Source: Rotaria sp. (taxonomy: Eukaryota). From it: a stretch of 64,000 nucleotides of DNA. Position numbers and translations under genes: made by a program. The notes beneath the pieces are model-generated. The model saw only the letters and a program-made list of their open reading frames with translations, ran no database searches and had not been told where the DNA came from. Numbering within the stretch: position 1 is the stretch's first letter; every line of letters starts with the position of its first letter. Location of the stretch: NCBI GenBank assembly GCA_905330235.1, contig CAJNUA010000046.1:311575-375574 (forward strand), read 5' to 3'. Positions 3,001 through 44,283 of the stretch are shown here, piece after piece.

Positions 3001-3003
3001 AAG

Positions 3004-4197
3004 TTACCGAGTTACTAGTAAATCAAATGTAAGTACCACGTTCAGGTATAAAAAACCCAGTGAAAAACTAGTTATTTTTCTTTTACCTGTTGTAGACATC
3101 AATATAGTTGTGATTGTAGTTGTTGCTGTGATAGTGGTAGTTTGCGTTGTATTGCTACCTGTACTTGAGCTTTCGGCTGTGGTTGTTGTGGTCGAGGTCA
3201 CGTCTGCGTTTATAATAATCGTTGCCGTGGTTGTCGTGCTGGCTGTGGTGATCGCGGCTATGGCTGCGGTTGTTGTAGTCGATGTTACTTCTGTTGTTGT
3301 TGTAATTATTGTCATGGTTGTCGCGATAGTTGTTGTGGTCGAGGCCACGGCTGTGGTTGTTGTAATTGTTGTCGTGGTTGTCGCGGTGGTTGTTGTAATT
3401 GTTGTCGTGGTTGTCGCGGTGGTTGTTGTGGTCGAGGTCATGGCTGTGGTTGTTGTAGTCGAGGTTATGGCTGCGGTTGTTGTAATTGTTGTTGTTGTGG
3501 TCGAGCTCATGGCTGTGGTTGTTGTAATTGTTGTCGCGGTTGTGGCGGTGGTTGTTGTGGTCGAGGTCATGGCTGTGGTTGTTGTAGTCGAGGTTATGGC
3601 TGTGGTTGTTGTAATTGTTGTTGTTGTGGTCGAGGTCATGGCTGTGGTTGTTGTAGTCGAGGTCATGGCTGTGGTTGTTGTAATTGTTGTCGTGGTTGTG
3701 GCGGTGGTTGTTGTGGTCGAGGTCATGGCTGTGGTTGTTGTAGTCGAGGTCATGGCTGTTGTTGTTGTAATTGTTGTCGTGGTTGTGGCGGTGGTTGTTG
3801 TGGTCGAGGTCATGGCTGTGGCTGTTGTAGTCGAGGTTATGGCTGTGGTTGTTGTAATTGTTGCTGTTGTGATCGAGCTCATGGCTGTGGTTGTTGTACT
3901 TGTTGTCGTGGTTGTGGCGGTGGTTGTTGTGGTCGAGGTCATGGCTGTGGTTGTTGTAGTCGAGGTCATGGCTGTGGTTGTTGTAATTGTTGTCGTGGTT
4001 GTTGCGGTGGTTGTTGTGGTCGAGGTCATGGCTGCGGTTGTTGTAGTCGAGGTTATGGCTGAGGTTGTTGTGCTGGTCATCTTAGTCGTCGTGGTGGTTA
4101 TTGCTGCGATCTCTGTGTACGTTACGGAGGTAGTTGTTACGGTTGTGTGGGTGGTTGCGATGCCCGGAGTTGTCGTAGTCACTATTGTTGTTGTCAT
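3004..4197 (-). CDS. Thr-rich mucin-like repetitive protein (ORF may be incomplete at 5' end; no signal peptide at this Met)
   Basis: 397-aa ORF, >70% Thr, with reiterated AMTSTTTTTATTTTTITTTT-type units; encoded by the tandem repeat at 3110-4080. The plus-strand poly-Val ORF is its mirror image. Coding status is uncertain. Confidence 0.35.
   Translation of the reverse strand: MTTTIVTTTTPGIATTHTTVTTTSVTYTEIAAITTTTTKMTSTTTSAITSTTTTAAMTSTTTTTATTTTTITTTTAMTSTTTTTAMTSTTTTTATTTTTSTTTTAMSSITTATITTTTAITSTTTATAMTSTTTTTATTTTTITTTTAMTSTTTTTAMTSTTTTTATTTTTITTTTAMTSTTTTTAMTSTTTTTITTTTAITSTTTTTAMTSTTTTTATTATTITTTTAMSSTTTTTITTTAAITSTTTTTAMTSTTTTTATTTTTITTTTATTTTTITTTTAVASTTTTIATTMTIITTTTEVTSTTTTAAIAAITTASTTTTATIIINADVTSTTTTTAESSSTGSNTTQTTTITATTTITTILMSTTGKRKITSFSLGFLYLNVVLTFDLLVTR
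3110..4080. repeat. imperfect tandem minisatellite with nested ~39-nt and ~126-nt periodicities (GTT/GTG-rich on plus, ACN-rich on minus)
   Basis: Motifs such as gtcgaggtcatggctgtggttgttgtag recur more than 15 times. Confidence 0.85.
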
Positions 4198-6689
4198 TAG
4201 GATTGAGGCTTTGAAAGAGAAACAGAGGTAGAATGAATAGGGATGTCAGGTGCAAAGGGTGTTGGATGGAGGATACCTGAAGTCTGATCCGAATGCTTGC
4301 TCTGTCGGCTGAAATAAATACTTGGGACGAGAACCGCGGCCAGAATGCCAAAAGACAATGATACTAACAAGATTTTGTGAAATCTACGAGAACAAGTCTA
4401 TGTGCAAGTTGAAAGGAATAAGGAAGATACATACGGTATCATTGTGATTGTGTCAGTTAAACAGGAGCTTGCTTGGTGATTTTGGAAACTACTTCAAGAA
4501 AAGAATACGTAGTTTTAGTGCGAGCAGAGTAGATGAAGTTTTTGTGCGTATATGATCTGAAAATTTTAATTGTAGATGACTTCGATACTATTGGTAGCAA
4601 TGGCAAAGTTTGCTGTATTAATGAATACTCGTTGCTATTGTTTTGTAACACAATTGGTCGGTTAATAGTTTCTCGTTAAAAGTAGATCTTGTAGCGAAAA
4701 TTGTCGTCAAGGAATTCGCAATATTTGTTCGCGATTTGTGCGAAAGTCGATTAGCAACACGAGAAAAAATAACTGCATTAATTCTTTCCTGATCGCACAC
4801 GATCGAGACGAAGAATGAGGTGAGGCTGTGGTTGTCGGTATTTCTGCGGATGTGAGTAAAGACAATAGGCACACTTACACAGACAGTCTCTCTTTCGAAG
4901 AGTAGTCTTAGTGACGTTAGAAAAATATAATGACCTGATGCCAGGTACAAGATGAAGTGAACAGAATCCAAATTCGAACTGTACTCTGACTTTTCATTTG
5001 AAACGGATACGATGGGGCAAAGAACAGAGGACGAGGTAAGATACAATGGTAAACTGCTTCAACAGCATTGAGGAATTTCATGAATTTCAGTCGACAGAGC
5101 TTAATGAACTGTGCTTGTAGCGAAACTTTAAAACCAAAATGAGATCATAATGAAAAGATATTTATTTACGAATTGTCTTGTTTTCTGATGTTTCGAGTAA
5201 TATGACAAATTATGTGCCTTACCAATGGTCATCCGAATAAAAATCAAAGGCAAGTAGTCTATTTTTTAAAGGTTGAAAAAGTCCAGAAATCATTCTATTC
5301 AAGCTTGCAGAAAAATGTTTCGGTTATAATGCAGAGCACCACTACTTCGAAGTATTGAATGTAAATTGTGGACTTACAGATAAAATATTGGATGCATCTC
5401 TATCTCACGCGTAAAATACTCTCTGAGAATTTGGTATATAGCGTATCAACTTCCCATTTTAATGTCCAACGCAGGTCTTAAGGTCCCTCCTGATTATGAA
5501 GGAACTTTTTTCTACAACTATTTTCAAAATGGTTATACTAGTGCTTTCGAAACCGTGTCTATCAAGTAAGCTAAGGAATAGGTTATCTGTTTGATCAACT
5601 TTTTGAAAAAGTAGCTAGTGTTCATTCCAGAGACAGTCAGTGTGTGGTTTCTGAAAATTGTCAATCTTGTCCTTAATTGCATACGAAAGAGAGTGCCTTT
5701 TGCACTGAGATCATGCCCTAGTGTTAATCTAGAACATCTGATATGAATATTACATGGAAGTTCTGTATTTCTTCCAAAGAAATTTGTTATGCATGAACTA
5801 TCGATATACATTTTGTCGAACAAAGTTGGTGTATCTGTTCCTATTCTTCAAAACCGAAGGAGCGTGGAATGTAAACCAAATCAAGGATGATATTCACGCC
5901 GATGAAACCACCTATTTTTGATCCATCACAAAGAAAGATATGCTTAAAAACGTTTTTCTTATTAAGACAAAGTCGAAAAGGCATGTATTTTTTCCTCAGA
6001 TCTTATTTTGCCATTGTGATCAAAATTAGTTTTTTTCAACTTTTAATTACTCTAAAAATATATTTTTTGGAAAACTCAGTATATAAATATGACAGAACTT
6101 GAAATTCTGTGTCGTTCCATATATTTTTTGTTGTGTTTTGCATTCATGTGCTGAAAAATGATTTGAGTATTACATACGAGGCTCTTCATAGTTTTTCGAA
6201 GTGGGAGAAGCTAAATTTTTTTCGCAGACAGTGTGTAAAATTTTTCGCAGACATTGCTGAAAAGTCAAATGGGGAAGATGGAAGCGGCGAGGGCAAAAGG
6301 TTAGGAATTATTTTAAGCAGAGATGACATAAAATTTTTTCCAATGTCCAAATTGGGCAAAATTCTTTTTGCTCGGAATTTAATTTCGTACGAAATGTGGA
6401 CTTCGGCAAACTTCACTAACTGGTACAGAATTAAACTCAATGTCTCAGAAAGAGACCATTTCTCGCCGATTGCTAAGAGTTATACTTTTTAAAATTTCCG
6501 AAAAAAGTCTTTCATATGCAATGCAGAGTCGTTTCCTAATATTGTTGCCACCGAAGGCGGCTACACTTATGATGATCAGTCGTTAGTGAAACGCTTGTTA
6601 AGCTTAATTTTAAAAATCGCAGTCGACTGTGATCTTGTTTCACAGAAAGACAACTGAGCTTGCCGTAAGAGGAAGGAAGGTTTACTAAA

Positions 6690-7569: not shown

Positions 7570-8570
7570 TCTGAAGGGTGATCCAAAAGTCTTGGGCCCT
7601 CTCAGAAAAATTGTTCGTTCTTCCTTATAGTAAACTCAAAAATGCTCAAACTCTGGTATCTTATCCCTTGTAAGTAGGTGAATATTACCCCAAAGTTTCA
7701 TGTCTCTACCCCTTATTATAAGGGAGATATATGGGCTAACATTGTTGAAATCTTATTTTTTTATGTCCAAAAAATAATGGTTGGCTCATAATACATGTAC
7801 ATGGGTCACTTTTGCGTTGCATTTTCCCACCACTTGATACGTTCTATTAAGAAAACAAAATATACCACAAGATGCAGCGCAAAAAGCTCTACAATCTACA
7901 CAGTAAAGAGCATTTTAATTATGTAATTTTTGTTTTCAAAAAAAGAAAAACTCTGTACGATTAAGTTTGCCATTGCAAAAACTGATCGCGCAAAGTTTTG
8001 CTTTTTTTGCAAACAAAAATTACATAATTAAAATGCGCTTTACTGTGTAGGTTGTAGAGCTTTTCACGCTGCATCTTGTGGTATATTTTACTTTTTCTTA
8101 ATAAAATGTATTAGGTCACAAAAAAGTGAAAGAAAAACGAATTTTTCCTTCTTGTAGAAAAAGAAGATTTTTTTACGACGGCGAAAATTGATTGCATAGA
8201 GTTTCGCTTTTTTTTTGGAATCAAAAACTATATAATTGAAATATACTTTACTGTGTAGATTGTAGAGCTTTTCATGCTGCATCTTGCGGTATATTTTGTT
8301 TACTTATCATGTGGTGGAAAAATGAAACGCAAAAGTGGCCCATTTATTATGCGCCAACCATTATTTTTAGGACATGGAAAAATAAGCTTTCTAGAATGTT
8401 AGCCTATATATCTCCCTTATAATAAGGGATAGAGACATGAAACTTTGGGGTAATATTCGCCTACTTACAAGGGATAAGATATTAGAGTTTGAGTATTTTT
8501 GAGTTTACTATAAGGGAGAACGAACAATTTTTCTGAGAGGGTCCATGACTTTTGGATCACCCTTTATGTA
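7570..8570. mobile_element. foldback / MITE-like nonautonomous element, ~1 kb, ~300-bp terminal inverted arms plus internal inverted subrepeats
   Basis: 7575-7860 is the reverse complement of 8285-8564 (agggtgatccaaaagtcttgggccctctcagaaaaattgttcgttc...). An internal ataccacaagatgcagcg...aaaagctctacaa motif occurs in both orientations at 7861-7920, 8040-8090 and 8230-8290. No ORF. Confidence 0.6.
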
Positions 8571-10090: not shown

Positions 10091-10595
10091 AGAAAAAGAA
10101 AGAAATTATCTTTTGTTTCTCTTTCGCAAATCAAGAAATACGAAAAAGCATAGGGGTGTCCTTATACTTTTTGGACTGGGTGTATATAGGCAGGAGAATA
10201 AAGCTACAACGAAGAAAAAAAAAGAAAATAATAAGAATGAACAAGGAAGAATGAGGAAAAAGGAAGAAAAAAGAGAAACAGGTGAAAAGGCTTCTGAGAA
10301 CTGCAAAGCCTCAAAAATTTCTTTCATCGAGTTTTCCAGTTGAATCTGTCATGCTATGAGATGGTATCCACATTGTGCCTATACTAAACACATCGGTGCA
10401 GAATCAAAACATTTTGATATATGTAGAAAACGAAACCGTCCCGTATATTTTTGCCATAAAGGTCTGTGAATGGTCAGCGAAATTTTCTCTAGTGAGTGAA
10501 AACCACCGAGTGCTCTTGCTAATGCTTTGTAGTATTTTTTCCCACTGGATGATGCAAATGAATTACAAAATAATTCAAAATTTTTATATTCTACC

Positions 10596-10893
10596 GGGAT
10601 CTCCCAGGACCTCCAGTATCTCCCAGAACCTCCAGTATCTACCAGAATCTCCAGGATCTTCAGGATCTACGAGGACCTCTAGGACCTTCTACGATCTACC
10701 TGGACTCCCAGGATCTGCCAGGATCTCCAGGATCTACCAGAACCTCCAGGATCTGCCAGGATCTCCAGGATCTTCCAGAATATACCAGGACCTCCAGGAT
10801 CTACGAGGACCACCAGGATCTACCAGAACCTCGAGAACCTTCAAGGATCTACCAGGACCTCCAGAATCTATCAGAATCTCCAGAACCTACCGG
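10596..10893. repeat. 9-bp tandem repeat (YYCCAGRAYCT)n, about 33 units
   Basis: ccaggatct / ccagaacct / ccaggacct units in register. Creates a 213-aa plus-strand ORF (10375-11016) of low-complexity PGSP/QDLQ peptide, probably not a real gene. Not collagen Gly-X-Y. Confidence 0.8.
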
Positions 10894-11274
10894 GGTTTAA
10901 CTATGGTCTACTACGGTCTGGATGTGGTTGCCATGAAGCAACTTACATCACGTCTCTCTCGATGTGAGTACCACAAAACCCTAGTTGACCCTGGTATATC
11001 CTGGAGATTCTGCTAGACTCTGGTATATGAGAATAAATTTATAATAATTATATGCATATATTCCTATAAATATGTAATATAGAAATTTTGAATTATTTTG
11101 TAATTCATTTGCGTCATGAACTCTTTTTTCCAGTAGATATTAGCACACATCATTGAGTAACTGTTCATCATAGACGGAAGCGAGGAAGAAATCTTTCTAG
11201 CAAAGGCAGTGATATACACGTTGTAGCGATGTGTAGTAAAAGTGGGTGTCGGTATGGGATGTGGAGCCTGGATC

Positions 11275-11341
11275 TGTGTGTGTGGGTGTGGGTGTGGGTG
11301 TGGGTGTGAGAGACTAGAAAAGTAACATCCACAACCACACC
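11275..11341. repeat. interstitial telomeric repeat (TGTGGG)x5 followed 15 nt later by degenerate C-strand (catccacaaccacacc)
   Basis: tgtgtgtgtgggtgtgggtgtgggtgtgggtgtgag ... catccacaaccacacc read directly. TGTGGG is the bdelloid telomeric unit. Confidence 0.7.
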
Positions 11342-11786
11342 TTTTACTCTCTCGAACTTAACTAACTTCACTTCATTCGCAAACTCATTATAAATCTTTA
11401 CAGATTTTTCCTCACCACCCTCATCAAGACAGATTCAATGTGTGTTTGAAAATTTTAAGTTGAACATATATGAAGTTCTCTCATATATTTGCTGATATTG
11501 CATATTCAGATGCTTTTGCCATATCCGATGAATTTTCTAACGTCTTGCAACACTTATAAAATATATCTGCTGTTCATGCTTATAATAAAATACTTTTTAT
11601 GTATGAAAATAAGTTCAAATGAAGGGCATTGTCTTCACGTGGACAATTGTACCGTTGAAAAAAATCGATTATCAAAGTTTATTTCTTTGAGAAGTAATGA
11701 ATCAATCAGTATGCAAGAAACTTTATACAACAGCAATGAAGAACACACTCCTTCCTCCCTTCCCACCAGAATAGGGTATGGATGCC

Positions 11787-11817
11787 GTGTGGGTGACGAA
11801 GAGACCCACGCCCACAA
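11787..11817. repeat. short head-to-head telomere-like pair (gtgtgggtg ... cccacgcccaca)
   Basis: Read directly; same G-then-C orientation as the other three loci. Confidence 0.4.
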
Positions 11818-12682
11818 AATAATTGAAAATTTCTATATGTTGTTGAGGAGAGTTATTTACAGAATTTACTGAGGTCTACCAGAATATACCACTATTAACA
11901 GGGATGTGAATGTAATCACAGACTCAGCCCAACCCGAAGTACATACACATCCTGGCAGACCATAGTACATTCTACAGATACTATTGATACAAATTATTAA
12001 GAACTGAATTGTTTTATAATTCATTTTTTTTATAATTACTTTATAATGCATTTGCGTCATCCATTGCTATTACTACTGTAGAATCCACTTCTGCATTCAA
12101 TTCAATTACCATGGTTTGTTTTACAATTCTAGGTGACTCTAATTCGACCGTCAATAAAACTGTTTTGATTCATATTCTTATAAGCATAGGCATTTGATCC
12201 GAACTGTATTGAATAAAACTTGAAGAAACTTCGAACGAAACTATAGAAAATTCATGCAAATTGCTTGAACTGTTCAAGAGCTCTTCATGATTATTTTTAT
12301 TTCGATAGACTTTTGGAACAGTCTATATTGTATCATCATACAGATTTTTCAAGAGGTATGGCGTAAATCTATTTATTGATGATTCTGTTTCATGATTAAA
12401 GAAATATTATTTTATTTCAAATAAAACTCGCGTAAATATTCTTCTTAAAAATTTTGAAAAGCACGAAAACAAAATACATTTTACATAAAAGAATTGTTAA
12501 ACGATTCTTTGCTTAACATTGACAGTAAATAATTAAAAACAATGAAGAACATGTTCTTGAAGAATCAAGCAGATTTAGTCGATATTTTATATATATGCCA
12601 GTACTTGTTTTGGTTTGTTTAACCTATAGAAAAAATTACTTTCCTTGACATTATTTTAGTGAAACCTATTTCTTACCTTCTT

Positions 12683-12745
12683 GGGTGTGGGTGTGGGCAT
12701 AGATCATCTCATCACACGCACATCCACACCCACACATCCACATCC
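12683..12745. repeat. interstitial telomeric repeat (GGGTGT)x2.5 then C-strand copy (catccacacccacacatccacatcc) after a 20-nt spacer
   Basis: gggtgtgggtgtgggcat ... catccacacccacacatccacatcc; lies at the left edge of the composite repeat region. Confidence 0.7.
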
Positions 12746-12749
12746 TTGT

Positions 12750-13140
12750 CAAGTAGTACTTTGATCTAGGCGAGGGAAGTTACCATTACGTTATCGAATA
12801 GCTGGTAATTGAAAATTCGTGATCATAATTTCTCGATATGTGAAGGGCATTTCAAGGAAATAACAATTTTTTTTATAAAGTTTCACCGAAGGCTTTCAGA
12901 GTTGATGAATTCGAATCTGTGAACAGTTTCTCGAAATTGTGTGCTCGATTTCTCGACCTAGTTACCACTACTCTGAAGACAATTGTTCAAACTTGAAATC
13001 AACTCGTTACTTTTTCAAAGCAGCTTATCTGTAGCGGAAAAATCAAGGTCACAATTGTGAAAAACTGATCACAAATTTGATTTCCCGGACTTCGAAAGAT
13101 TTTAATCAAACTTCACAAATAGCTTCTCTGTGTGACCCTC
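12750..13140. repeat. ~120-bp subrepeat units (one inverted, one direct) of the same family as 13952-14305
   Basis: 12870-12990 is the reverse complement of the 14080-14200 unit (gaaactgattacagatttgaattcctcg vs cgagaaactgttcacagattcgaattc). 13010-13130 is the direct match (aaaatcaaggtcacaattgtgaaaaactgatcacaaatttgatttcc). Confidence 0.5.
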
Positions 13141-13951
13141 CTATGAAGGGGCAAAGTGTGAAATTCACAAGCTCTGACTGTTTTAATTTTATGGTATATT
13201 TGCGTAGGATTTAAAATAATTTATTTTAAAAAAATGTCAAATCAATGAATAAATCAAAATTATAACAATTTTTATAGCTGATAGGTACGATATGATATTT
13301 TTACCTTTTAAAAATGTTTGCGTTTAGAATTACTTTTCTACAAATTTATTTGATTCATGTAACATCGTGATATTGTTAAAATTCATTTTTATTGCCAGAT
13401 ACATCTTCAACACACCTTCTTCTCTCCTAATGATAATATGTATGCGACGCAGGTCATAGGAAGTGGAAAATACCATTTTACTCTTCGTTTTGTCTTTTCA
13501 ACAACCGTATTTGCCTGCTATACACATTGATTTAACCGTTCAGTAATTTATCGTGCGCAACATCTTTTCTCACGACGAAGTTCGACATCAAGTATTGAGT
13601 TTTGCCTAAGCCTAGAATTCAATTGGTTCATACGTGTCTATCTCCGTCCTCTTCTGATAGTGCTAGATCGAGAATACGACCGCCCTATTTATTGGCACCT
13701 AGAATAAGATCGTTTTTCTACATTCAGAACGAAAACACGCAATATTTAGACTAGCTAGAATTAACAGAGTCCCAGAACGATCTACGCACTGATATTACTT
13801 GCATGTCTTTCCCCATCGCTAGGAAAACGTATCCAATAATCTTTGGTTTTCCCTCTTCTGGTTGCTCAGACCTAGCAGGAGGAAGTCGCAAGAACCCCGA
13901 TTAAAACTTACACTTACTGTTATTTTCTTCGGAGATATACGTGTTCCACAA

Positions 13952-14305
13952 ATCATTATTTCCTCAAAATAACGATCCTGTATCAAGCAATCAGGATGAT
14001 AAGTTTTTAGAAACCGATTACAGATTCGGATTCCTCGATCCCGGCTATCTTTGGTCAAGTTACATAAGAAATCGTTATTTCCTCGAAATATCGTTTCCCG
14101 GTTGAAAAAATCACGTACACAATTTTGAGAAACTGATTACAGATTTGAATTCCTCGGCACCGAATATCTTTGGTCAAACTTTGTAAAAAATCGTTATTTT
14201 CTCAGAAAAACCTTTCCTTGCTGAAAAAAATCAACTACGGAGTTTCGAGAATCTGATTGCAGATTCGAATTCCTCGACTCCAGATACATATGGTCAAACT
14301 TTGTG
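13952..14305. repeat. tandem repeat, 3 units of ~119 bp
   Basis: Units start aatcRttatttYctc and contain ...gattacagattcgRattcctcgRYcccgg...tttggtcaaRYtt. Confidence 0.8.
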
Positions 14306-14564
14306 GATGTAGGTTGTATCCTTGAAATATCCTTCACGTACCGAGAAATAATGGAGATGGATTTTCAATAACCAGTTGCTCGAGAGCGTAACGATAAGTT
14401 ATTTCGCCTAAATCAAAGTACTAGTTTACAAAAATAACTGAATATTTCAATCGGATGAATGCACTAACAATTCTGTACTATAAGAGTATAGAAACATCAA
14501 CGCTTGACCGAAGAACACACTATGGACCATATCGAGCAGTTCGATCTGTATCAGGGCTGTCACT

Positions 14565-15236
14565 TTAACTCTACTTTAAAAGTTCAATTTGAAGTGTTAC
14601 TTTAAACTTTAAAGTTTAAAGTTAAAGTAATACACTTCAAAACTGTAACTTTAAAAAATCAACGTTAAAGTACGTATGTTAAGGATCAATAATGGAACTT
14701 GATTTTATGAGTAAGTGGTTTTTTGGAAAATAACGATTTTTATAAAGGTTGACGATAGTAAATCGGGGTCGGGGAATCCGAATCAGAAATTCAAATTTCA
14801 AAATTTTGAGTTTCACGTTTTTTCATAAGTGTTTTTTCAAAAAAAATCAATTCTTTTTATAGAAGTTCAATTTTTATCAATAAATCTCTTTTTACCTAAA
14901 AAAATTACATTTTTTGTCAAGAAATGTTTTTTTTCAAAAAAAAAAACAGGTTTTTATGCAAAAAGAGATTTATTGATAAAAATTGAACTTATGTAAAAAA
15001 CCAATTTTTATGAAAAAACGTGAAACTCCAAGTTTTGAAATTCTGATTTCAGATTCTGATTCTCCGCCCCCGATTTAGTTTTATCAACCTTTATAAAAAA
15101 ATCGTCATTTTTCCAAAAAACCCTTTCCATACTCAAAAACTCAAGTTTCACTATCGATCCTTAACATCCGTACTTTAAGATACTGTAAGGTACTTTATCG
15201 TACTTTAAGGTACTTCAAAGTACAAAAGTATCATGT
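14565..15236. mobile_element. foldback element / long near-perfect palindrome (arms ~250 bp, centre ~14900) flanked by tactttaaag-type satellite in inverted orientation
   Basis: 14679-14870 is the reverse complement of 14980-15164 at ~85% (ggaaaataacgatttttataaaggttgacgatagtaaatcggggtcggggaatccgaatcagaaattc...). The arms share aatcgttattttcc and gattcggattcc with the 120-bp units. Confidence 0.7.
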
Positions 15237-15922
15237 TTCCCCCTTGTTTGGGCTGCAATGCAGCATAATTTGATGCTAAGTCCATCAAAACTCATGAAGA
15301 TAGACAACAAAAGCAACGAAATCAGTTTGAAAATAATCATCTGGAAGGTTTTTGAACGTAAGGAATTTCATATGAACCGATATTTCCAAGATTGTTCTTT
15401 CGAATGATCACAACTCAAGCTGCATAAATTGAAATAATAAAAAGTTATTCGAAAACAATGGAGAACATTTTAATAAAAGCCCGACATTAATACAATATGA
15501 AAGAGAAATTTTAGAATGATTTGCCAGTTCTTTAGATTTCTAATGATTTAAAATATTTTTACCTTGATAGATCATTCAATGCATTGCAGAAAATGCGGAA
15601 TTATTAGCTGACACCACAATATGTCAAAAAAGAACAATAAATGGATCATTGCTTTCTGATTCCACTGGATGTAAATTTCAGTAGAATGTAAACATAGTTT
15701 GAATTATAATTTTTCTAGATCCCATATGACATAGTAAACTGAGTTGGATCACAGATTTAGGAAAACGAACGTTACCTTAAGTGTAACCAACAGATTATGA
15801 TCATCATTAAGTACTTATAAATGAAAAAAAAAGCTTGAAAATTATTATTCGTGAAAAATTATTTACAATATAAAAACAAATATCTATATGTTACAAAAAT
15901 TCCATTTCTAATTAAATGCATT

Positions 15923-17167
15923 TCATATAGGGAGCTTTGATCTTTCTAGAGAGGCGATTTGTAATAATTGTTTTTCCACAATCTTAGAATTCCGAAAATC
16001 ACTCTCAGTAAATGTTGCACCAAACAAATCAGCATTTGTCAAATTTGCGTGATTAAATATGCATTGTTTACAATTAGCGTATCGCCAGTCACTATGACTT
16101 AAATCTGCACCCGTAAAATTTCCATTGATTACTCTACTATATTTCATTGATGCTTTATGCATATATGCATTTGAAAAGGTAGTATCAATAAACACAGCAT
16201 GATCAAATATTGAATTCATTAATTTAGTTTCAATTAATGCACATTTCGTAAAATTAGTATAAGTACCATTAACATGATTCATAGCCGTCTGATAGAAATC
16301 AACATTTAGACCAAACTTTGATCGATATAAATTAGCATAATCAAGTTTTGCAAACATAAATGAAGAGTTTTCAATAGCTGCATTTTCTAAATTTACTTCA
16401 ATCATAGTAGTAGAATCAAATAAACAATTGAGACAGAAAAATGTATGTAAATTAGCATGATTCATTATCACACCAATGAAATCAACATTTTCATATGTAG
16501 CAGAAAACAATGAAGCAGATGTTAAATTTGCATTATTGAAAAACAATTTTGGAGAATTATGTCTAAGAGTACTCATCTCATCATCAAATGTTGGAGCATT
16601 TCGAGTCCAAGAAAAATCAGCATTAATAAGTACAGCACCATTAAATCTTGCACCGCGGATATTAATTTCATGAAAATTAGCTCGTATCATAATAGTACTT
16701 TCCAATGAAAGATGAAATAATACTCTTCGTTCAGATTCATCAATTAATTTTAAATCAGTTAAATTAGCGTATTCAAGTGAAACTGGTGGTCGATAATCGT
16801 CTGATCGATAGGTGATTAATTTAGCTTCATATAATAAACGAACGAGAAAATTTCGTCGAGCAGAATCTAGACGATTTAATGCTGAAAGAGTGGCAAAACG
16901 AGCGATAAGTGAAGCAGATGAACTTTTATTAAGTTCTGTACCATATTTTTCAATTAATTTACTTAATGTCTTTTGACATTCATGAAGAATTTGATCTTTC
17001 TGTTGATCATCGGCTATATCAAGGTCTTGTTTACGATTATGATTTGCTATTGCAAAATCACGGTTACTTTCTAATACAGTATAAACACCAATAGCGATAG
17101 GAATAGAAATTGATATGAATAATTGAATCCAACCAAAACATGAATGATTATTGTTTTTCTGTTCCAT
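15923..17167 (-). CDS. pentapeptide-repeat protein with N-terminal transmembrane helix, intronless, 414 aa
   Basis: TM segment GWIQLFISISIPIAIGVYTVL, then coiled-coil-like region. More than 40 consecutive A(N/D)LxxA/F-type pentapeptide units follow (ANLTNADLFGATFTESDFRNSKI, NHANLHTFFCLNCLFDSTTM...). Confidence 0.7.
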   Translation of the reverse strand: MEQKNNNHSCFGWIQLFISISIPIAIGVYTVLESNRDFAIANHNRKQDLDIADDQQKDQILHECQKTLSKLIEKYGTELNKSSSASLIARFATLSALNRLDSARRNFLVRLLYEAKLITYRSDDYRPPVSLEYANLTDLKLIDESERRVLFHLSLESTIMIRANFHEINIRGARFNGAVLINADFSWTRNAPTFDDEMSTLRHNSPKLFFNNANLTSASLFSATYENVDFIGVIMNHANLHTFFCLNCLFDSTTMIEVNLENAAIENSSFMFAKLDYANLYRSKFGLNVDFYQTAMNHVNGTYTNFTKCALIETKLMNSIFDHAVFIDTTFSNAYMHKASMKYSRVINGNFTGADLSHSDWRYANCKQCIFNHANLTNADLFGATFTESDFRNSKIVEKQLLQIASLERSKLPI

Positions 17168-20033
17168 TTTGTGTTCTGAAAAGAAGTAATTTTGATTTGA
17201 CGATTATATTAATTGTAGGTAACTGATCAAATTTCTTCTGATAACATCATACTTTATACTTGAATCATGCTGATGATAGTATTAAACAAAGAAAACAGAC
17301 TAATATTGACTGAATTTCTCAAATGACTGAGTCATTGTAAGTCAAATGTTTTAAATCTTGACAATATATATATTAAATCTAGGCGTCAGTTTTCATACTC
17401 AACAAATATTTTGATAACATTGACAGAATAGATCGAACTCTAGGATAAGTATTACTCGGTAAAGCTAATTGAATTCGAACTGGAAGTTCTCGAATATTAT
17501 TAACGATGATAGGATTTAATTAATTCTAACATTGAACGATACTTGAAGTCAGAAGAGATGTGAAAGTAATACAAATTACTAACTATTGTTACAGAATATA
17601 TTACTATTTATAATGGATAAAATTTGTCAAGATGTTTTTATTTTATGACCTAGCTTAATTTACAAATCATATGTCTTGTAGATATTATCTGAGTTAATAT
17701 TCTAATAGAAAAGAAAAGAAGTTTTTTTTTAATTCAATATGCAAGCGAGAATATAATTTACTTGATTCAAAATCTTCTTCGCAATAATGTAATATGATCG
17801 TATCAACATTCGATAACTTTTAAAAATTGATTAAAATATGGAAGGAAGAACGATTTTATTGGGTATTTAATAATGTCCTTGCACATGTCATAAACATCAT
17901 GGTCATCATATTCGAATCCATTTAATATTGATTGAACTAGATCGATTAATTCTATGAATGAATACTATTCGAGTTTACTGAATATAATCCCACGGGAAAT
18001 TTGCCACTTTTCGATTGCTATAATTTATCAAGTACTATTTTCTTTCTTAATAGTTTGAATTTTTTTTTTAACTATTAAAATTTTTAGACTTTATGACGTT
18101 GTTTTTTTTTCAAGTCATTAAAAAGATCAGGCTAAGACTATTATGAATCCATCAGTTCATGTTCCTTATTGAATGAGCTGATTTCAATGCAGTCATGATA
18201 TTGGGGCAATAATCAATAGAACAAACAAAAAAGTACTTAAATAACAGTACGTAACAGTATCTCGGTCGAATATTCCATTGAGAATAGTCTTAGTACATAT
18301 GTACTTCAAAGAGTTCGTTCGATTACTTGTCTGGCTTTCAGAGTATTCCGCAAAAATTGTTTTGAATAAGTTAGTTGATTGACAACTTACAAGTATTTCG
18401 AAATCAAGAACTAAAAAAGTCCAAACACATCCGAAGCTACTGAAAAATCCAAAAGATTCTGTGGCATACTAGTAGCAGAGTATCGTGAAATTAGTATGTT
18501 CATTGCAAAGGTAGAACGACTAGTTATGATAAAATTCAAGTATTTCTATTATGATTCTTACATCATTTTAAATAAGAACATATCTAATTGACTCATCGAT
18601 GGTTACAAAATGCTTGTGTATACACTGTTATAATACGAGCTTTATTCAATGGACAAGTGTGTTCAAATAAAACAAATATTTATACTTATTGTTACTGGTA
18701 ATTTAGAGCATTTTTATGCCATTTTGTTAGCAATGTAAAATATTCGTGCTCGTCATTGTGTACAATGGAAGATGATAATCAAATAGACGCTATTGTGTTT
18801 GTATTTCGTACAAAACGTAAAGGTATTATTAAGAATACACATAAACTACAATACAAGTACCAATCTTCGTTTTGGTTCACAAAGAATGCTTTTTAAAATA
18901 ATCAAAGAAATAGTAAAACAACTAATTCCATAAAATAATATATCTAGATTCAGATGATTCAATCATCACAATAGGGTTGAAAACTGAATTTTGTAGCTCG
19001 ACAACGATCCGTATGATTTTCGAAAATAATAGGTGTTATTACTTTTCTTTTCATACTAGTATCTGAAAACTATGTTTAGATCTCTATGATGAACTACAAT
19101 AGATCTCTTAATTCAATATAATCAAGAACTCATTGTTTTCTATGAATTTCCTATTATAAATATTAATTAGATTTTGTGTCTTAATTGAATTTCCTCTCTT
19201 TATTTTGTTTTTGCTTCAGGCTATTGCAGTTTGCTTTTGTTTTGATAATTGATATATAGGGAGGAAGTATAGGCTTCGTTGCATCACTTAATATATTACT
19301 CATAAATAATATTCAAAGTTCAGAAAACAAAAAATACATTAGAAAAAAAAAATGACGACGTTTTTTATTACTGCAATGTACAATAAGAGTTACATTAAGT
19401 TTTTGTCTTTCCTTTATTTTTGTACTTCTGAACAAATATTACTTCAATTATGGTCGAAATATTTATTTAAATACAGAGATTAATAATATCTTGCTATATA
19501 TCATTAATTAAAAATGATAAAAAATCAAACTGCAGTAATCTGAAGCAAGAAAAACAAACTAGAGAAATTCAATTGAGACGCACTGTATAACAATAATATT
19601 TAGTTTAAAAATCGAACGTATATTATTTCAATATTAAATAGATGATACATTTTTTCTTTACATTTAGATACATATCTGGTGTTTTACAAACTATTATTAC
19701 AGAAAATAAACAGTAAGAATTCGAATGTTTAACAAATATTCGAAAGAAAAAAAATTGCATACAAAAAAATGATTAGTTTTAATAAAAATATCATACACAC
19801 AGACGTCAAAAGTTCATTCGATTCACAAAATATTTCTCTACCTAATATTTCACTCTGCTACACTACAATGTGAATATTTTTGTATAAAACCTATTCTCAT
19901 CATTAATATCAAGATCAAAAACCTTTTATATCAATGATAAATTCTAATAATTTATATAATAGGAGTTCATAGCGCATGTTCATCTCATGCCAAGTTACAA
20001 CTTTTTAAAATAATAGTTTTATTTTATTTTTTC

Positions 20034-30680: not shown

Positions 30681-33600
30681 TCTTCTATCCAGGGAAAACA
30701 TGTACATATACATATAGCGGTGGATGACTAGATATCATAGAACAAAGAAAAGGTATATCTAGTCATCAAAAGAAATATAATCAGTTACAAATGATATAGC
30801 TATAAGAAAAGAAAAACGAAAGAAAACAAAAGAGACCTAGATAAATGAAATAGAGTGGAAACGATGTGAAGGGCGAGCCCGTAACAATAAGTTAGGATTG
30901 CAGCAAGATGAAACGATTGTTTCGTATTCATCTGACAATAATTTACAATCATTCTCACCCTTTATACAAGCATAAACATAATTTGATAGCTGAGTAAATA
31001 GATTTGTGTAAAATGTATTCGATATTGATATCAAAATCTGACAAAATAAATACATAGCATACGGCGTTCAAAAGCTATAACTGTGACTTGATTGACATCT
31101 CGAATTTTATTATTATTATAAGACTCGTCATAACTATCACTGTATTGACATGTCTATATTGAGAAATTTATAAAAGATGATAAATGAAATTTTCATTGCT
31201 TTTTATCTTATATAACTTACTCACAAAAAAAAAACAAAAGCAAAAATAAATAATTTTATACTCGAAAAGTAAACAGTAAACTATTAGAAAAAAACTTATT
31301 TCTTTTTTTGTAGATAAAAAGACAAATATATTCTTTTGCGCATATTTGGTTGTTATCTCATTCTTTTTCTCTTGTGTTAAAGTAGAAAAGAAACTTGTTG
31401 GATAGTATATGATCAAGTTCTAGAAAAAAAAAGCTGTTACTACAATATATATGTGATTAAGATATGCAACATAATATAGTTGCTGTTGCTAATCACACGA
31501 AGATTCTCTTATTCAATCTATTTTCGAACACATTTCTTCGCTATCTGCTTACTTAATTTTGGAGAAATACAGTAAAAAAGTAGTTCAGATATCATAATGA
31601 AACGCTATTGATATATGGCCAGTAATCGTATATTAACAACTTATATTACGACCTGTGACAAAGGAGAGACGTTGCTAAGGATGTCTGTCATGTCTGTGGC
31701 GAGAATGAGTTCAAATTTCTACCTCTAAACTTCAACCCTTTTACATCATGTTTTACAAAGAGCCTATAACACGTATTACTTTTCTTATTAACTGTTTCCA
31801 TCTGATATCAAAGCTCATCATTATCTAATTAAATACGAGGTAAGTTATAATAGATTTTATTTTTTTATCATCATCATTTTTCCAAAAATTTTCACATACA
31901 AACTCTCACGACAATATATAATCGGTTTGAATAATAATTTTAAAAAATCATACAAAAACGGTTTTAATCAAAACCTAGTGTTTGTGTTTCTAAAACGGAC
32001 AATAGATGAGCATGAGTATACTAATGATATCAAAAACAACGAAGGGTTGTTGTCTGACCGATGATACACCATTGTATAAGTCTGAATTGCAACAACATGT
32101 CGTGATATTTCCTCAAAATCGGGTGCATTCAATGTCATACATTTGTTATCAACCACTTCGTATTCACTGATATCAACGGCATCTCGACTAATGACACTTA
32201 CATCGGTTTTGATTTTCTTTGAAAAATATAGTTAGTCTTGTTAAAAATGTTAGAGAATACGTAATTTTTATCGTTGGCTAGATTGTACCGTGACTTTTCA
32301 TGCATCTGCAGCTTGTCTTGCATTAAAAGGATCATTACAATCTGGTTTACTTACTAAGAATATTACATTGATGCATTGATAGGCTTCAGTAGACCAGATA
32401 ACTATAAGAATTTTATCCTCGAATAATTGTTCAATGTATATTCTATGTTTAAAACTTATTAAGTGAACAAACGAGAGCGACCAGAATTAATTTCAGGAGT
32501 GAATACTTGTTGAAGTATTGTTATTTATCGTCAAGCACAGCTGAAATGGGTAATAACATGGATTAAATGCTGTCGTTACTCTTGTATATATATTCATCAT
32601 GGAGACGTAATAAAAGTAATTATGTGTTATCTCATCTTGCAACACAGTTGTGCAATATTCTTAGTTTGAAAAAAACTTCTATTTTTACATGAATGATGGT
32701 CGTTTTCGGTTGGTTCTGTTTGTTAACTGCTATCGTTTTTCTGTTCATATGAAAAGAACTTCTGGAAATTGATGAAATATTGAAGAGTCATAATAGACCA
32801 GTGCTGTGCAATGACGTTGAGTTTTCGTTAGATGAAGTTTATCGTATTTACGCCACTAAAAAAATGGGAGGATCATTCATTTAAAAAGTAATTTGAAAAT
32901 GTTTTTAATGAATATATTACAAGATATGCCTTCAATCTTTTATTATTTTGTTTTGCTTGTTTTTGATGCAGTAGTAGTTCTATGAGATGATGAGAATTGG
33001 GAATCTTCGTATCACCCAAAAACTGACGCGTATATCCTCAAAATAGCTGGTTTTTCGAATATTCTATATGCAGTTAACGGAGTATAAGTGTAAATGCATT
33101 CAAAATAATGCTGTTTGAAGTCCTTTGTCTTCTCTATTAGACTCTTAGTTGTGATATAATCGATTAAATCTCAGAATTGGTTAAAAATGCCTACTTATTA
33201 TCAAAGGATAAAGGCGTTGGATTTCTATCACTTAAAAGACACATTTTTGAAGCAAAACATTCTTAATTTGCTTTATTTGTTAACATGTTTTATCGTGTCT
33301 AGAAAACAAATGAAAAAAAAAGTAAAATTTAACGGACTTGTACAGTTTCAAAAAGGGGTTTTTTTCCAGAAGCCTTCTCTTTATTACTCATTTTATTTTA
33401 TTAGATATCAATAGATCTTCGTTATTAAGTATTCACAACCAATATTCGGATCAATTCGAATAATTCAATGCAGTAGCATATCGGAGAGATAAGCCGCACA
33501 CTATTCTGTTACCAAGATGCCAAAAAACGACGAATTTGTCAAGCTGAAATTTTCAATTCAATTACAGTCACAGACATAAATTCTAATACCTAAGGTTTCC

Positions 33601-34004
33601 ATTGGCAACCAAGGTCGATCAGTCATACTCATCAATCGCCATACGATTAGCATTATTTGATGACGATGTAGTTTATACGTTTTGCGAGAATGTTTTCGTC
33701 CAAGATGTAGACTACTATTACTATTTCTGTATAACAAAAAGATTGTATTATTCACCTATGATAACATATTAAAGCAGGAGTGTCTGTTTTGAAAAAGTTG
33801 TCCGAATTCATTGAAGTTTGGGTAGCTTGTAGAAGTAAATAAGATACATGCATCATAAAATTTTCAGTTTGATATGCTTTATTGAAGAAAAGTTATAATG
33901 AAAATATGTCTGTATGAAATTGATGCAGATATAGAATAAATTTTGTTTAGTACTATTTTCATAAGATTCATCGGCTTTTTAGATTTCAAAGTATGACAAA
34001 AATT

Positions 34005-34063
34005 GGGTGTGGATGTGGGCATCAAATCAAGTATATGTCAAAAAAACACTCACACACCCACGC
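34005..34063. repeat. interstitial telomere-like repeat gggtgtggatgtgggcat followed by C-strand copy cactcacacacccacgc
   Basis: Same G-then-C architecture and the same ttgggtgtgg.tgtgggcat junction as the 12683 locus. Confidence 0.6.
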
Positions 34064-35052
34064 TTAAATTCTCGCTTTGAACGTGCAATTATCTGTTCTC
34101 ACTTATTTTCTCTCTGTCTTTTGCCAAACGATAATATTGCGGTCATACTCATCCTCATCCAGGTGCTCTTGCATCATGTTCATCTTGGTCAAAGTTTTGG
34201 ACTACACATCAATGAAAATATGTAAACATCGGTGATTCTTGAAAAAAAAATCAATGATAATCTGTGAACATAAAGTCTCTACTTCGGTGAATATTGACTT
34301 TTCAGAAAGCATCGATTGAAATATGTGGAATCACTCTGTAGTCATGTGCGATCATCAATGATTTTGAGAAAGCATGCGTTTTTATTGATGAAAACAACAT
34401 TGCACCTGAAATAAAATATGTTTTTGTTTTATGTAATCCACTCAGAGAGTCGTCGAAAGCAGTAATTTTGTTTTTCTAACGAGTGATTCTTGATAACAAA
34501 ATCTAAAAAACAAAACTTGCTTTACATTTTAAACAGTTTGTTTCTACAGTAAGAGGTCTAGGCATGAAATATTATGTCGACAAGTGAATAGTTTTGAAAT
34601 TTGCTTACACAATCGGTATAAAATGCTTTCAGAGAATACAACTGACCAAATCAATTCCGAATCGTACTACTTGTTCTTAGCTCCATAGATGAGAAGCCAC
34701 AGCACTTGATGATAAAGACATTTTGAAAAAATTATTGTGGACTGAAGGCACCTTTCATCACGCCACTTTCAAGCTCGATCAAAAGAGTCCTGACATCTGA
34801 AGTTGATTAATTCGAATGCATGACTTTTTTTATTCGTTCTTTCAACCTGCATCCCTCAAGTCATTATATCGGTGTATTATGTAAATATACCGCCTATTTT
34901 TTCATTAATGTTTTGATCATCGACTAGAAGAGCATGTTTGCATTTTATTCCAGTGTTATTCAGATTATATTTTTGCACGTAGAGGACAAATGATTGCTCA
35001 TGATGTATAAAAATGAAATCGGTGTTTGTAGAAGGCAACATTTCATTCCTCG

Positions 35053-44200: not shown

Positions 44201-44283
44201 CTAAAATTGATATTATTGTTATCACTACCTAACTTAATAAGTTTAATAAGAAATTTTATTTGTTTATAAAAGAATTCAACTGT

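What the first reader, a model, noticed from the sequence alone, without database searches (positions are those of the whole stretch)
11275..12745. Four interstitial head-to-head telomeric-repeat pairs, (TGTGGG)n followed by a (CCCACA)-like block, all in the same orientation
At 11275, 11787, 12683 and 34005 a short G-strand block of the bdelloid telomeric hexamer is followed after 10-30 nt by a degenerate C-strand block. The pair can form a hairpin. Two loci share the junction ttgggtgtgg.tgtgggcat. Interstitial telomeric tracts are expected where telomere-associated Penelope-like (Athena) elements or healed breaks were internalised. The consistent G-then-C architecture suggests a specific terminal structure of a repeat family rather than random telomere capture. 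The 12683 locus bounds the composite foldback region.
Basis: partly seen in the sequence, partly recalled or inferred. Interest (0 to 1): 0.6.

Follow-up and report, generated by a model that had tools for sequence, protein, structure and literature searches.

The report
Head-to-head telomere-repeat scars in rotifer
Short, decayed blocks of the bdelloid rotifer telomere repeat face each other inside a chromosome; they are most likely old scars where two telomere-capped DNA ends were joined, which is a known kind of feature and not the end of a transposon family.

Summary
The window comes from Rotaria sp. Silwood2, a bdelloid rotifer. It holds four places (11241-11342, 11787-11817, 12680-12745, 34003-34064) where a TGTGGG-type block is followed 3-25 nt later by a CCCACA-type block. 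Random placement never gives this.

"Same orientation" says nothing about strand, because a G-then-C pair reads G-then-C on both strands. The informative fact is that the pairs are inward (G then C) and never outward.

I found no reverse-transcriptase or other protein-family hit, no hammerhead ribozyme and no shared flanks. The Athena and "terminal structure of a repeat family" readings are therefore unsupported.

The blocks lie in DNA that is structurally unstable. A second Silwood2 haplotype lacks the whole 11-15 kb region. In Rotaria sp. Silwood1, a similar block cluster sits exactly at a homology breakpoint. Locus 34005 is ancient: at the same site Silwood1 has about 250 nt of decayed G-strand repeat.

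Best reading (confidence about 0.5): these are decayed inward interstitial telomeric junctions, scars of joining two telomere- or neotelomere-capped ends. Locus 11787 is weak and may be a diverged transposon inverted repeat. The 20-mer shared by loci 12683 and 34005 remains unexplained. This is a new member of a known kind and of moderate interest.

The parts
11241..11312 (.). Locus A, G-strand run. It is degenerate on the left and has a perfect (TGTGGG)4 core at 11281-11304, then TGTGAG.
11325..11342 (.). Locus A, C-strand block acatccacaaccacacct, 12 nt after the G run.
11343..12679 (.). 1.34-kb segment bounded by a C-block on its left and a G-block on its right. This is the layout of a linear piece with telomere repeats on both ends. 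It contains locus B and element E2.
   Evidence: (I12: 11270-11302 vs 12713-12745, 85% complementary); the capped-piece reading is inference
11787..11817 (.). Locus B, a weak pair (gtgtgggtg ... cccacgcccac). It may be the diverged left inverted repeat of E2 with a 12-15 nt C-strand-like replacement.
   Evidence: TGGGTGACG vs family terminus TGGATGACG, 8 of 9
11814..12060 (+). E2, a short diverged copy of the E inverted-repeat element family.
10549..11117 (+). E1, an element with 42-nt terminal inverted repeats (95% complementary) around a 19-nt tandem array. It lies 123 nt left of locus A.
12680..12700 (.). Locus C, G-block cttgggtgtgggtgtgggcat. It shares a 20-mer with locus D.
12701..12745 (.). 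Locus C, degenerate C-strand run. The scan threshold is met from 12713. The run ends exactly where the foldback arm begins.
12746..14441 (.). Foldback structure. Its inverted arms are built of 119-120-nt sub-repeats, and its outer ends are at 12746 and about 14441.
14665..15178 (.). Palindrome, 77-86% between arms. Homology to the alternative Silwood2 haplotype (L134) stops inside it, at about 14997.
33032..34002 (.). 972-nt Silwood2-specific segment. It lies between the conserved left flank and D's G-block. In Silwood1 the same place holds about 250 nt of decayed G-strand repeat.
34003..34022 (.). Locus D, G-block ttgggtgtggatgtgggcat.
34046..34064 (.). Locus D, C-block acactcacacacccacgct. 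The spacer and the C-block are orthologous in Silwood1.

Best explanation
The pairs are decayed inward (head-to-head) interstitial telomeric-repeat junctions. Each is the scar of a joining event between two DNA ends that both carried telomeric repeats. The left end finished in (TGTGGG)n on the top strand. The right end finished in (TGTGGG)n on the bottom strand, which reads (CCCACA)n on top.

The capped ends could have been true telomeres, or short neotelomeres added by telomerase to broken ends. The join itself would be end-joining. Afterwards the tracts decayed, mostly by G-to-A changes that give TGTGGA and TGTGAG units.

The 1.5-kb cluster A-C reads as ...G][C-segment-G][C..., that is, one or two small pieces capped on both ends and ligated between two other capped ends. 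This happened in a repeat-rich, gene-free stretch that also carries fold-back palindromes.

The pairs have no demonstrated function, and their hairpin potential follows automatically from the geometry.

Shown: the telomere-repeat identity, the non-random inward pairing, the interior position, the structural instability of the surroundings, and the great age of locus D. Inferred: that telomerase made the tracts and that end-joining fused them.
For: 1. Sequence identity and enrichment of the bdelloid unit (telomeric unit from PMC7943196 and PMC8494291).

2. Inward pairing.
- The window has 4 of 4 inward pairs and 0 outward.
- In about 171 kb of bdelloid DNA, 5 loci have a C-like 10-mer with at most 1 mismatch within 80 nt downstream of a G-block. 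None has one upstream.
- The fifth locus is in Rotaria sp. Silwood1 (L007 10917-11025).
- Weaker inward pairs occur in a Silwood1 paralogous locus (L136 17697) and in Adineta vaga (L135 3293).

3. Association with structural junctions.
- The window is collinear with Silwood1 and R. sordida only down to about 15247-15488.
- An alternative Silwood2 haplotype (L134, 97.7% identical) diverges at 14997. It has no telomere-like block and is collinear with Silwood1 further on.
- In Silwood1 the outermost C-block (ctagacccacac + atatat) ends within about 6 nt of where homology to L134 begins.
- Locus C's C-run ends exactly at the outer end of the foldback arm.
- At D, Silwood1 has about 250 nt of G-strand repeat starting where left-flank homology ends. 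Silwood2 has 972 nt of unrelated DNA there.

4. Asymmetry. The tract lengths and variant content differ between the two arms: C has 20 nt of G against about 41 nt of C, and Silwood1's D has about 250 nt against about 30 nt. This fits two independent tracts better than a copy of one.

5. No transposon signature and unique flanks.

6. Precedent.
- Head-to-head "fusion ITS" are a recognised class (PMC8537989).
- That paper also reports rare DSB-site insertions with telomerase acting on both sides (3 of 41 loci).
- Fusions of neotelomeres and inward telomere fusions are described in cancer genomes (PMC11293586).
- Telomeric repeats and Athena fragments were found at deletion breakpoints in A. vaga, with transient neotelomeres proposed to leave scars (PMC13564844).
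Against: - No clean empty orthologous site with contiguous flanks was found for any locus, so no joining event is reconstructed base by base.
- The inward versus outward asymmetry rests on 5-7 loci (one-sided p about 0.03).
- At looser thresholds, two 7-8-nt outward C-like motifs appear in Silwood1: L007 10806, and the conserved flank CACCCACA next to the D-orthologous run.
- Locus B may not be telomere-derived at all.
- C's C-run abuts the natural end of a foldback structure rather than a demonstrably truncated sequence.
- Loci C and D share an exact 20-mer frame with the same start phase, length and TT/CAT flanks. Independent healing events do not predict this.
- I did not verify TGTGGG at a Rotaria chromosome end myself.
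- Loci A and B were seen in one assembly only. C and D were seen in two.
Confidence: 0.5

Rival explanations
1. Local inverted duplication. A single interstitial telomeric block was copied in inverted orientation next to itself, by fold-back priming or intrastrand template switching during replication or repair. No second capped end was involved.
For: - The neighbourhood is full of fold-back structures: 12746-14441 and 14665-15178, and Silwood1 has its own palindrome at the same place.
- At locus A the C-block is shorter than the G-run, and its reverse complement matches the run at about 15 of 17 positions.
Against: - Complementarity never extends into the flanks.
- At locus C the C-run (about 41 nt) is longer than the G-block (20 nt) and has different variant units.
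- This mechanism predicts outward pairs as often as inward ones, and none reached the same threshold.
- It does not explain the coincidence with homology breakpoints.
Confidence: 0.17
2. Terminal or internal hairpin of a repeat family. This is the first reader's idea: an Athena/Penelope-like 3' end with reverse-complement telomeric repeats, or another transposon whose ends carry telomere-like inverted repeats.
For: - Loci C and D share TTGGGTGTGGRTGTGGGCAT plus a loose CAT.A.ATCA.
- Telomere-like blocks lie 0-170 nt from ends of E-family or foldback elements in four cases.
- Athena 3' ends do carry (ACACCC)n (PMC8557442).
Against: - No RT, endonuclease or any other Pfam hit.
- No hammerhead ribozyme.
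- Flanks and spacers are unique in the window plus about 107 kb of other bdelloid loci.
- D is an orthologous single-copy site whose Silwood1 version does not contain the 20-mer.
- Metagenome matches to the 18-mer core are unrelated GC-rich arrays or coding DNA without a partner block.
Confidence: 0.08
3. For loci C and D only: the shared 20-mer frame and the CAT that follows it are a cDNA copy of the telomerase RNA template region, with read-through past the template boundary. This would resemble vertebrate TERC-ITS. It would be a sub-case of break repair by telomerase rather than a separate origin.
For: - The two loci have an identical start phase, length and TT/CAT flanks.
- Rough chance estimate is 1e-3 or less (my own estimate, not a formal test).
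- Precedent: TERC-derived fragments sit next to telomeric repeats at break sites, including head-to-head cases (PMC8537989).
Against: - The bdelloid telomerase RNA is not available to me, so there is no direct comparison.
- A 15-17-nt template would be unusually long.
- In D the sequence after CAT (ATCAAGTATATG) is orthologous flank shared with Silwood1, so little or no read-through sequence is left to explain.
Confidence: 0.1
4. Functional hairpin: a small RNA precursor, or a palindromic regulatory site (CACCC-box-like).
For: - Stable predicted hairpins, especially at locus C (-28 to -32 kcal/mol as RNA, z about -4).
- The block conserved between C and D is 20 nt long and starts with T.
Against: - No Rfam family above noise.
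- The conserved 20-mer begins at the very base of the stem, so there is no lower stem for processing.
- Loci A-C are absent from another haplotype of the same species.
- D's Silwood1 ortholog has diverged at a neutral-like rate, and its fold is not better than shuffles (z = -1.35).
- No genes were called within 10 kb of A-C.
Confidence: 0.04
5. Chance: GT-rich and CA-rich low-complexity DNA that happens to resemble the telomere unit, or an assembly or amplification artefact.
For: - Locus B is short and has an alternative origin.
- Some blocks picked up by the scan are clearly unrelated, for example the coding array at 3175-4100.
Against: - Shuffle and placement tests.
- C and D recur in an independent assembly at 99.2-99.4% identity.
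- D is orthologous in two Silwood1 assemblies.
- Point-mutational decay argues against a chimeric-read artefact.
Confidence: 0.03

Closest known systems
Fusion-type (head-to-head, inward) interstitial telomeric sequences, such as the ancestral telomere-telomere fusion at human 2q13 (my own knowledge), listed as the class "fusion ITS" in PMC8537989
   Same: A G-strand tract is followed on the same strand by a C-strand tract. The location is interior, and the tracts have decayed.
   Different: Here the tracts are tiny (12-72 nt, or about 250 nt in the Silwood1 ortholog of D). Three lie within 1.5 kb. The flanks are not shown to be two former subtelomeres.
Short ITS inserted at double-strand breaks by telomerase, including the rare head-to-head cases (3 of 41 TERC-ITS loci; mouse lemur, Xenopus) explained by a second telomerase acting on the other side of the break (PMC8537989)
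   Same: Short inward pairs at sites of breakage. The shared frame of C and D could be template-region read-through.
   Different: Those loci have empty orthologous sites with contiguous flanks. None was found here. Here the inward form is the commonest form rather than a rarity.
Neotelomeres, fusions of neotelomeres and inward telomere fusions in cancer genomes (PMC11293586)
   Same: The same proposed sequence of events: break, short telomere addition, then fusion leaving a short telomeric tract at the junction.
   Different: Those events are somatic and recent and are verified by long reads. These are germline and old, and the events are only inferred.
Neotelomere and Athena signatures at deletion breakpoints in Adineta vaga (PMC13564844)
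   Same: The same animal class and the same repeat unit. The authors propose that transient neotelomeres leave scars.
   Different: That work reports single-sided soft-clipped repeats in experimental lines, not fixed inward pairs.
Athena / Terminon endonuclease-deficient Penelope-like elements of bdelloids (PMC3846280, PMC8557442)
   Same: They carry short (ACACCC)n stretches and are the usual source of internalised telomeric repeats in bdelloids.
   Different: They have an RT ORF, a hammerhead ribozyme and same-orientation repeats between head-to-tail copies. None of these is present here.

Membership tests
Fusion-type (inward) interstitial telomeric sequence | The repeats are the species' own telomeric unit. 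| tested here: met
   Perfect (TGTGGG)4 plus variants. The unit for bdelloids comes from the literature. The organism is Rotaria sp. Silwood2. A Rotaria chromosome end was not inspected here.
Fusion-type (inward) interstitial telomeric sequence | A G-strand tract lies 5' of a C-strand tract on the same strand, close together. | tested here: met
   Gaps of 12, 3, 12 and 25 nt, and no outward pair.
Fusion-type (inward) interstitial telomeric sequence | Interior chromosomal position. | tested here: met
   The same locus lies at 373-378 kb of a 777-kb contig. The surrounding genes are ordinary ones.
Fusion-type (inward) interstitial telomeric sequence | The two flanks derive from two formerly separate ends, so synteny breaks at the junction. 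| tested here: inconclusive
   - Synteny and haplotype homology end near the loci: 14997/15247; at L007 within 6 nt of a block; at 33031 for D.
- No junction was resolved into two identified source ends.
Telomerase-mediated short ITS insertion at a DSB (Nergadze/Giulotto type) | An empty orthologous site exists, with otherwise contiguous flanks. | tested here: not met
   - D's ortholog in Silwood1 also carries the ITS.
- Haplotypes lacking the loci lack many kilobases around them.
Athena / Terminon (EN-deficient Penelope-like element) terminus | A reverse-transcriptase ORF or its remnants lie adjacent. | tested here: not met
   No Pfam hit in 20 local or large ORFs. Short remnants without ORFs were not searched by profile.
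Athena / Terminon (EN-deficient Penelope-like element) terminus | A hammerhead ribozyme motif lies next to (ACACCC)n. | tested here: not met
   No Rfam match at gathering score or at E<=5 in the window regions or in L007.
Athena / Terminon (EN-deficient Penelope-like element) terminus | Telomeric repeats all lie in one orientation between head-to-tail copies. | tested here: not met
   The blocks alternate G, C, G, C, G, C.
Transposon or MITE family with telomere-like terminal repeats | Several copies share internal or flanking sequence, with target-site duplication. | tested here: not met
   Flanks and spacers are unique in the window and in the other bdelloid loci. The sample is only about 171 kb, so a rare family is not excluded.
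Animal microRNA precursor | A hairpin with about 22 bp plus a lower stem, conserved arms and expression. | tested here: inconclusive
   Only noise-level Rfam miRNA hits (E 0.18-2.9). There is no lower stem. The loci are absent from another haplotype. Expression is not testable here.

The most novel reading that the evidence does not exclude
In bdelloid rotifers, double-strand breaks are often capped on both sides by very short telomerase-made neotelomeres before the ends are rejoined. Short inward (TGTGGG)n-(CCCACA)n pairs would then be a countable, datable genomic record of past chromosome breakage, for example from desiccation. Clusters like A-C would record small doubly capped fragments that were stitched back together. 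The 20-mer shared by loci C and D would reflect the telomerase RNA template and its boundary.
Probability: 0.22. Interest if true: 0.65.

Novelty: new member of a known kind. Interest (0 to 1): 0.38.

Why it matters
Bdelloids survive massive DNA fragmentation. A 2026 study of Adineta vaga (PMC13564844) proposes that transient neotelomeres protect broken ends and leave scars.

If short inward telomere-repeat pairs are such scars, they can be counted in existing assemblies. They could then be compared between desiccating and non-desiccating species and between haplotypes. That would turn a proposed repair intermediate into a measurable genomic footprint.

If they are only a handful of old fusion junctions in junk DNA, they are ordinary interstitial telomeric sequences.

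Tried and rejected
1. Metagenome scan for GGGTGTGGRTGTGGGCAT.
- It returned at least 120 contigs, almost all with GC 45-70%. They are (GGGTGT)n arrays of other organisms or coding DNA.
- Only 5 have a C-like block within 150 nt downstream and 4 upstream, mostly (CA)n.

2. Rfam at the gathering threshold and at E<=5 gave no hammerhead and only noise-level miRNA hits.

3. Pfam on 20 ORFs gave nothing transposon-like.

4. Searches for shared flanks by BLAST with short words gave nothing.

5. Treating B's C-block as capping a truncated E2 inverted repeat was withdrawn. Alignment showed the supposed G-block matches the repeat terminus at 8 of 9 positions.

6. Treating C's C-run as capping a truncated foldback arm was weakened. 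Both arms end at the same sub-repeat boundary, so 12746 is the natural outer end of the structure.

7. Orthology of locus A with the Silwood1 block cluster was not supported. Only the E-family inverted repeat aligns.

8. The homoeologous carbonic-anhydrase locus (P0024) could not be fetched.

The cluster members were used instead.
Full report
SOURCE AND POSITION

A 414-aa pentapeptide-repeat protein is encoded at 15923-17167 on the minus strand. Its exact sequence occurs in several NCBI assemblies of Rotaria sp. Silwood2. One contig (GCA_905332175.1, CAJOBL010000068.1) is 100% identical to the window over 21 kb. In a 777-kb contig the locus lies at about 375 kb, so it is not at a contig end.

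GC content is about 30%. The large ORFs are ordinary genes: an ARIH1-like RBR ligase, and TIR, TPR, LRR and carbonic-anhydrase proteins.

TGTGGG is the accepted bdelloid telomeric unit. It is found at all scaffold ends of the A. vaga chromosome-level assembly and is described as "supported in other rotifers" (PMC8494291 and PMC7943196). I did not inspect a Rotaria chromosome end myself.

THE OBSERVATION

The four pairs are present. I scanned for 12-mers within two mismatches of (TGTGGG)n or its complement. Outside an unrelated coding array at 1550-4840, the scan gives G-type blocks at 10915, 11241, 11274, 11787, 12680, 14302 (weak), 21135 and 34003. It gives C-type blocks at 9434, 11325, 11802, 12713 and 34046.

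The core of locus A is a perfect (TGTGGG)4. Telomere-like words are far above shuffle expectation: 10 against 0.01, and 7 against 0.13.

Four G-blocks are followed by a C-block after 12, 3, 12 and 25 nt, and no C-block is followed closely by a G-block. Random placement gives a mean of 0.045 close pairs and never four in 100000 trials. Even inside the 1.5-kb cluster the observed order has P = 0.001.

All four can fold. Only locus C is clearly better than shuffles under DNA parameters.

The junction shared by C and D is real (12681-12700 and 34003-34022, 19 of 20 identical).

One logical correction is needed. An inward pair is its own reverse complement in architecture, so "same orientation" says nothing about strand. 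The only alternative arrangement is an outward pair (C then G).

WHAT IS NOT THERE

- No Pfam family matched any ORF of 50 aa or more around the loci, or any ORF of 150 aa or more in the window, that would indicate a transposon.
- Rfam found nothing at gathering scores. At E<=5 it found only noise, and no hammerhead ribozyme.
- Athena/Terminon elements are defined by an RT, a 3' hammerhead motif with (ACACCC)n, and same-orientation telomeric repeats added to 5' ends (PMC3846280 and PMC8557442).
- The four loci align only through their telomere-like letters.
- Their flanks and spacers match nothing else in the window or in the other bdelloid loci fetched.
- A metagenome scan with the 18-mer core found only unrelated GC-rich arrays and coding DNA, with no partner-block bias.

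THE SURROUNDINGS ARE STRUCTURALLY UNSTABLE

Loci A-C lie in a gene-free stretch of at least 10 kb that is made of repeats:
- E1 (10549-11117), with 42-nt inverted ends around a 19-nt tandem array.
- E2, a short diverged copy (about 11814-12060).
- A foldback of 119-120-nt sub-repeats (12746-14441).
- A palindrome (14665-15178).

Collinearity with Rotaria sp. Silwood1 and R. sordida runs from 27167 down to about 15247-15488 and then stops.

A second Silwood2 haplotype (L134, 97.7% identical) diverges at about 14997. It has no telomere-like block in 12 kb. From its position 5867 it is collinear with Silwood1. The segment carrying A-C is therefore a derived or translocated piece that is polymorphic within the species. 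Locus C is confirmed in an independent assembly (L133, 99.4% identical).

AN INDEPENDENT CASE IN SILWOOD1

About 1.5 kb beyond its own palindrome, Silwood1 carries a cluster of G, G, C, C blocks (L007 10841-11053). The outermost C-block (ctagacccacac followed by atatat) ends within about 6 nt of the point where homology to the Silwood2 L134 haplotype begins. A telomere-like block therefore sits at a rearrangement junction there.

LOCUS D IS OLD

I used AIM24 cluster members to fetch neighbouring DNA. Silwood1 aligns to the window from 35343 down to 34053, and again from 33029 leftward.

At the position of D, Silwood1 has about 250 nt of decayed G-strand repeat that begins where left-flank homology ends. 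This is followed by a spacer orthologous to D's spacer (ATCGAATATATGTTAAGAGAAT against ATCAAGTATATGTCAAAAAAAC) and then a decayed C-like stretch.

In Silwood2, 972 nt of unrelated DNA (33032-34002) replaces most of the run. D therefore predates the split of two species whose non-coding DNA is only 76-79% identical. It is single-copy and orthologous, and it has drifted at a neutral-like rate. Its Silwood1 version does not fold better than shuffles.

The larger segment containing D is itself present or absent:
- A Silwood2 contig joins window 30916 to 50483.
- A Silwood1 contig joins about 32349 to about 45325.
- Neither carries telomere-like blocks at the join.

HOW GENERAL IS THE INWARD ARRANGEMENT

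In about 171 kb of non-redundant bdelloid DNA, five loci have a C-like 10-mer with at most 1 mismatch within 80 nt downstream of a G-block. None has one upstream. Weaker inward pairs occur in a Silwood1 paralogous locus and in A. vaga, 2.5 Mb from a chromosome end.

At looser thresholds two 7-8-nt outward motifs appear in Silwood1. The asymmetry is therefore suggestive (p about 0.03), not proven.

INTERPRETATION

An inward pair is what results when two ends that each terminate in the G-strand repeat are joined. This is the recognised class of fusion ITS. Rare break-site insertions with telomerase acting on both sides have also been described (PMC8537989). Fusions of neotelomeres are documented in cancer genomes (PMC11293586). 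In A. vaga, telomeric repeats and Athena fragments occur at deletion breakpoints, and transient neotelomeres have been proposed to leave scars (PMC13564844).

The A-C cluster reads as ...G][C-1.34 kb-G][C.... This is a piece capped on both ends and ligated between two other capped ends. The outer G of A and the outer C of C form the 85%-complementary pair that the repeat finder reported (I12).

The arms are unequal in length and differ in variant units, which fits two independent tracts. The neighbouring fold-back palindromes are compatible with repeated break-and-repair at this site, but they may also be foldback transposons.

I put this explanation at about 0.5.

CAVEATS AND CORRECTIONS TO MY OWN EARLIER READING

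- Locus B is weak. Its G part (TGGGTGACG) matches the E-family repeat terminus (TGGATGACG) at 8 of 9 positions. B may therefore be a diverged E2 end with a 12-15-nt C-like replacement.
- C's C-run abuts the natural outer end of the foldback, not a demonstrably truncated copy.
- No locus has a clean empty site.
- The frame shared by C and D (same start phase, length, and TT/CAT flanks) is not predicted by independent healing. Possible explanations are read-through of a telomerase RNA template region, gene conversion, or chance. This remains unexplained.

RIVALS

The rivals are a local inverted copy of a single tract (0.17), telomerase-RNA read-through for C and D (0.10, a sub-case of break repair), a repeat-family hairpin (0.08), a functional hairpin (0.04), and chance or artefact (0.03). 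Each is set out with its test in the rival section.

VERDICT

This is a real, non-random feature. It belongs to the known class of inward interstitial telomeric junctions. Its possible value is as a countable footprint of neotelomere-mediated repair in bdelloids, and that requires a genome-wide census I could not run.

Noticed in passing
window 14997 (also 15247-15488); L134, L007, L010: The interval downstream of the pentapeptide gene is hypervariable. The window, a second Silwood2 haplotype (L134), Silwood1 and R. sordida each continue with unrelated DNA. Silwood1 and the window each have a palindrome there, but built from different segments.
   Followed up: partly
window 30916-50483; L140, L139: A 19.6-kb segment carrying locus D and the carbonic-anhydrase, LRR and ARIH1-like genes is missing from a 99.5%-identical Silwood2 contig. 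A different 13-kb span (about 32349-45325) is missing from a Silwood1 contig. These look like independent large indels at the same place in two species.
   Followed up: partly
window 18133-18135; L140 20084-20975 and L134 1-65: In assembly GCA_905330535.1 two contigs break at this point. They end in sequences that are reverse complements of each other, which suggests an insertion with inverted ends (a transposon polymorphism) or an assembly-graph branch.
   Followed up: no
window 15923-17167 (-): An intron-less pentapeptide-repeat gene (bacterial YjbI-like). It is conserved at 77-82% protein identity in Silwood1 and R. sordida, and there are many metagenome relatives. It looks like a horizontally acquired gene.
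   Followed up: partly
window 10549-11117, 11814-12060; L006 14152-14233: The E family of small elements has about 42-nt terminal inverted repeats (ATGAYGCAAATGAATTACAAAATAATTC...), and E1 has an internal 19-nt tandem array. A related inverted repeat occurs in Silwood1. Telomere-like blocks lie 0-170 nt from three of these ends.
   Followed up: partly
window 7770-8370 and 45671-46476; L006 1833-2832: A dispersed repeat with internal inverted and direct sub-repeats is shared between two window sites and Silwood1. It is unclassified.
   Followed up: no
window 3004-4197 (-), array 3175-4103: A long ORF is filled by a nested tandem array (periods 27, 87, 129 and 216 nt) of GGCTGTGGTTGT-type units. 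It gave false hits in the telomere-like scan. No Pfam family matched.
   Followed up: no
window 35053-35835 (+): An alpha-carbonic-anhydrase ORF has no exact protein in the collection (best hits 79-80% identity). This copy seems unannotated in all Silwood2 assemblies, or it is a pseudogene.
   Followed up: no
window 52366-53040 and 58788-59462 (-); L140 1641-7196: There are two 224-aa TIR-domain ORFs. The L140 contig aligns to both 62460-58766 and 53259-50483 with overlapping coordinates, which suggests the window carries a tandem duplication of roughly 6 kb that L140 lacks.
   Followed up: no
window 21135-21147; L010 6174-6192: A single telomere-like block (tgggtgtgagggt) with no partner block lies inside conserved collinear DNA. 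It is present at the orthologous place in R. sordida.
   Followed up: no
window 36100-36190; L012 10180-10290: Just past the carbonic-anhydrase stop codon both species keep a GT-rich then CA-rich imperfect inverted repeat (gtgtaggtat...acctacattcat). It may be a conserved 3' structure or another decayed pair.
   Followed up: no
L033, L039, L055, L064, L066, L086 (metagenome contigs, GC 0.37-0.39): Six contigs share cccagaaata..tccatttttt..GGGGTGTGGGTGTGGGCATgtacttccataa. This appears to be a conserved gene start (MPTPTP... on the other strand) in some low-GC organism and is unrelated to rotifers.
   Followed up: no
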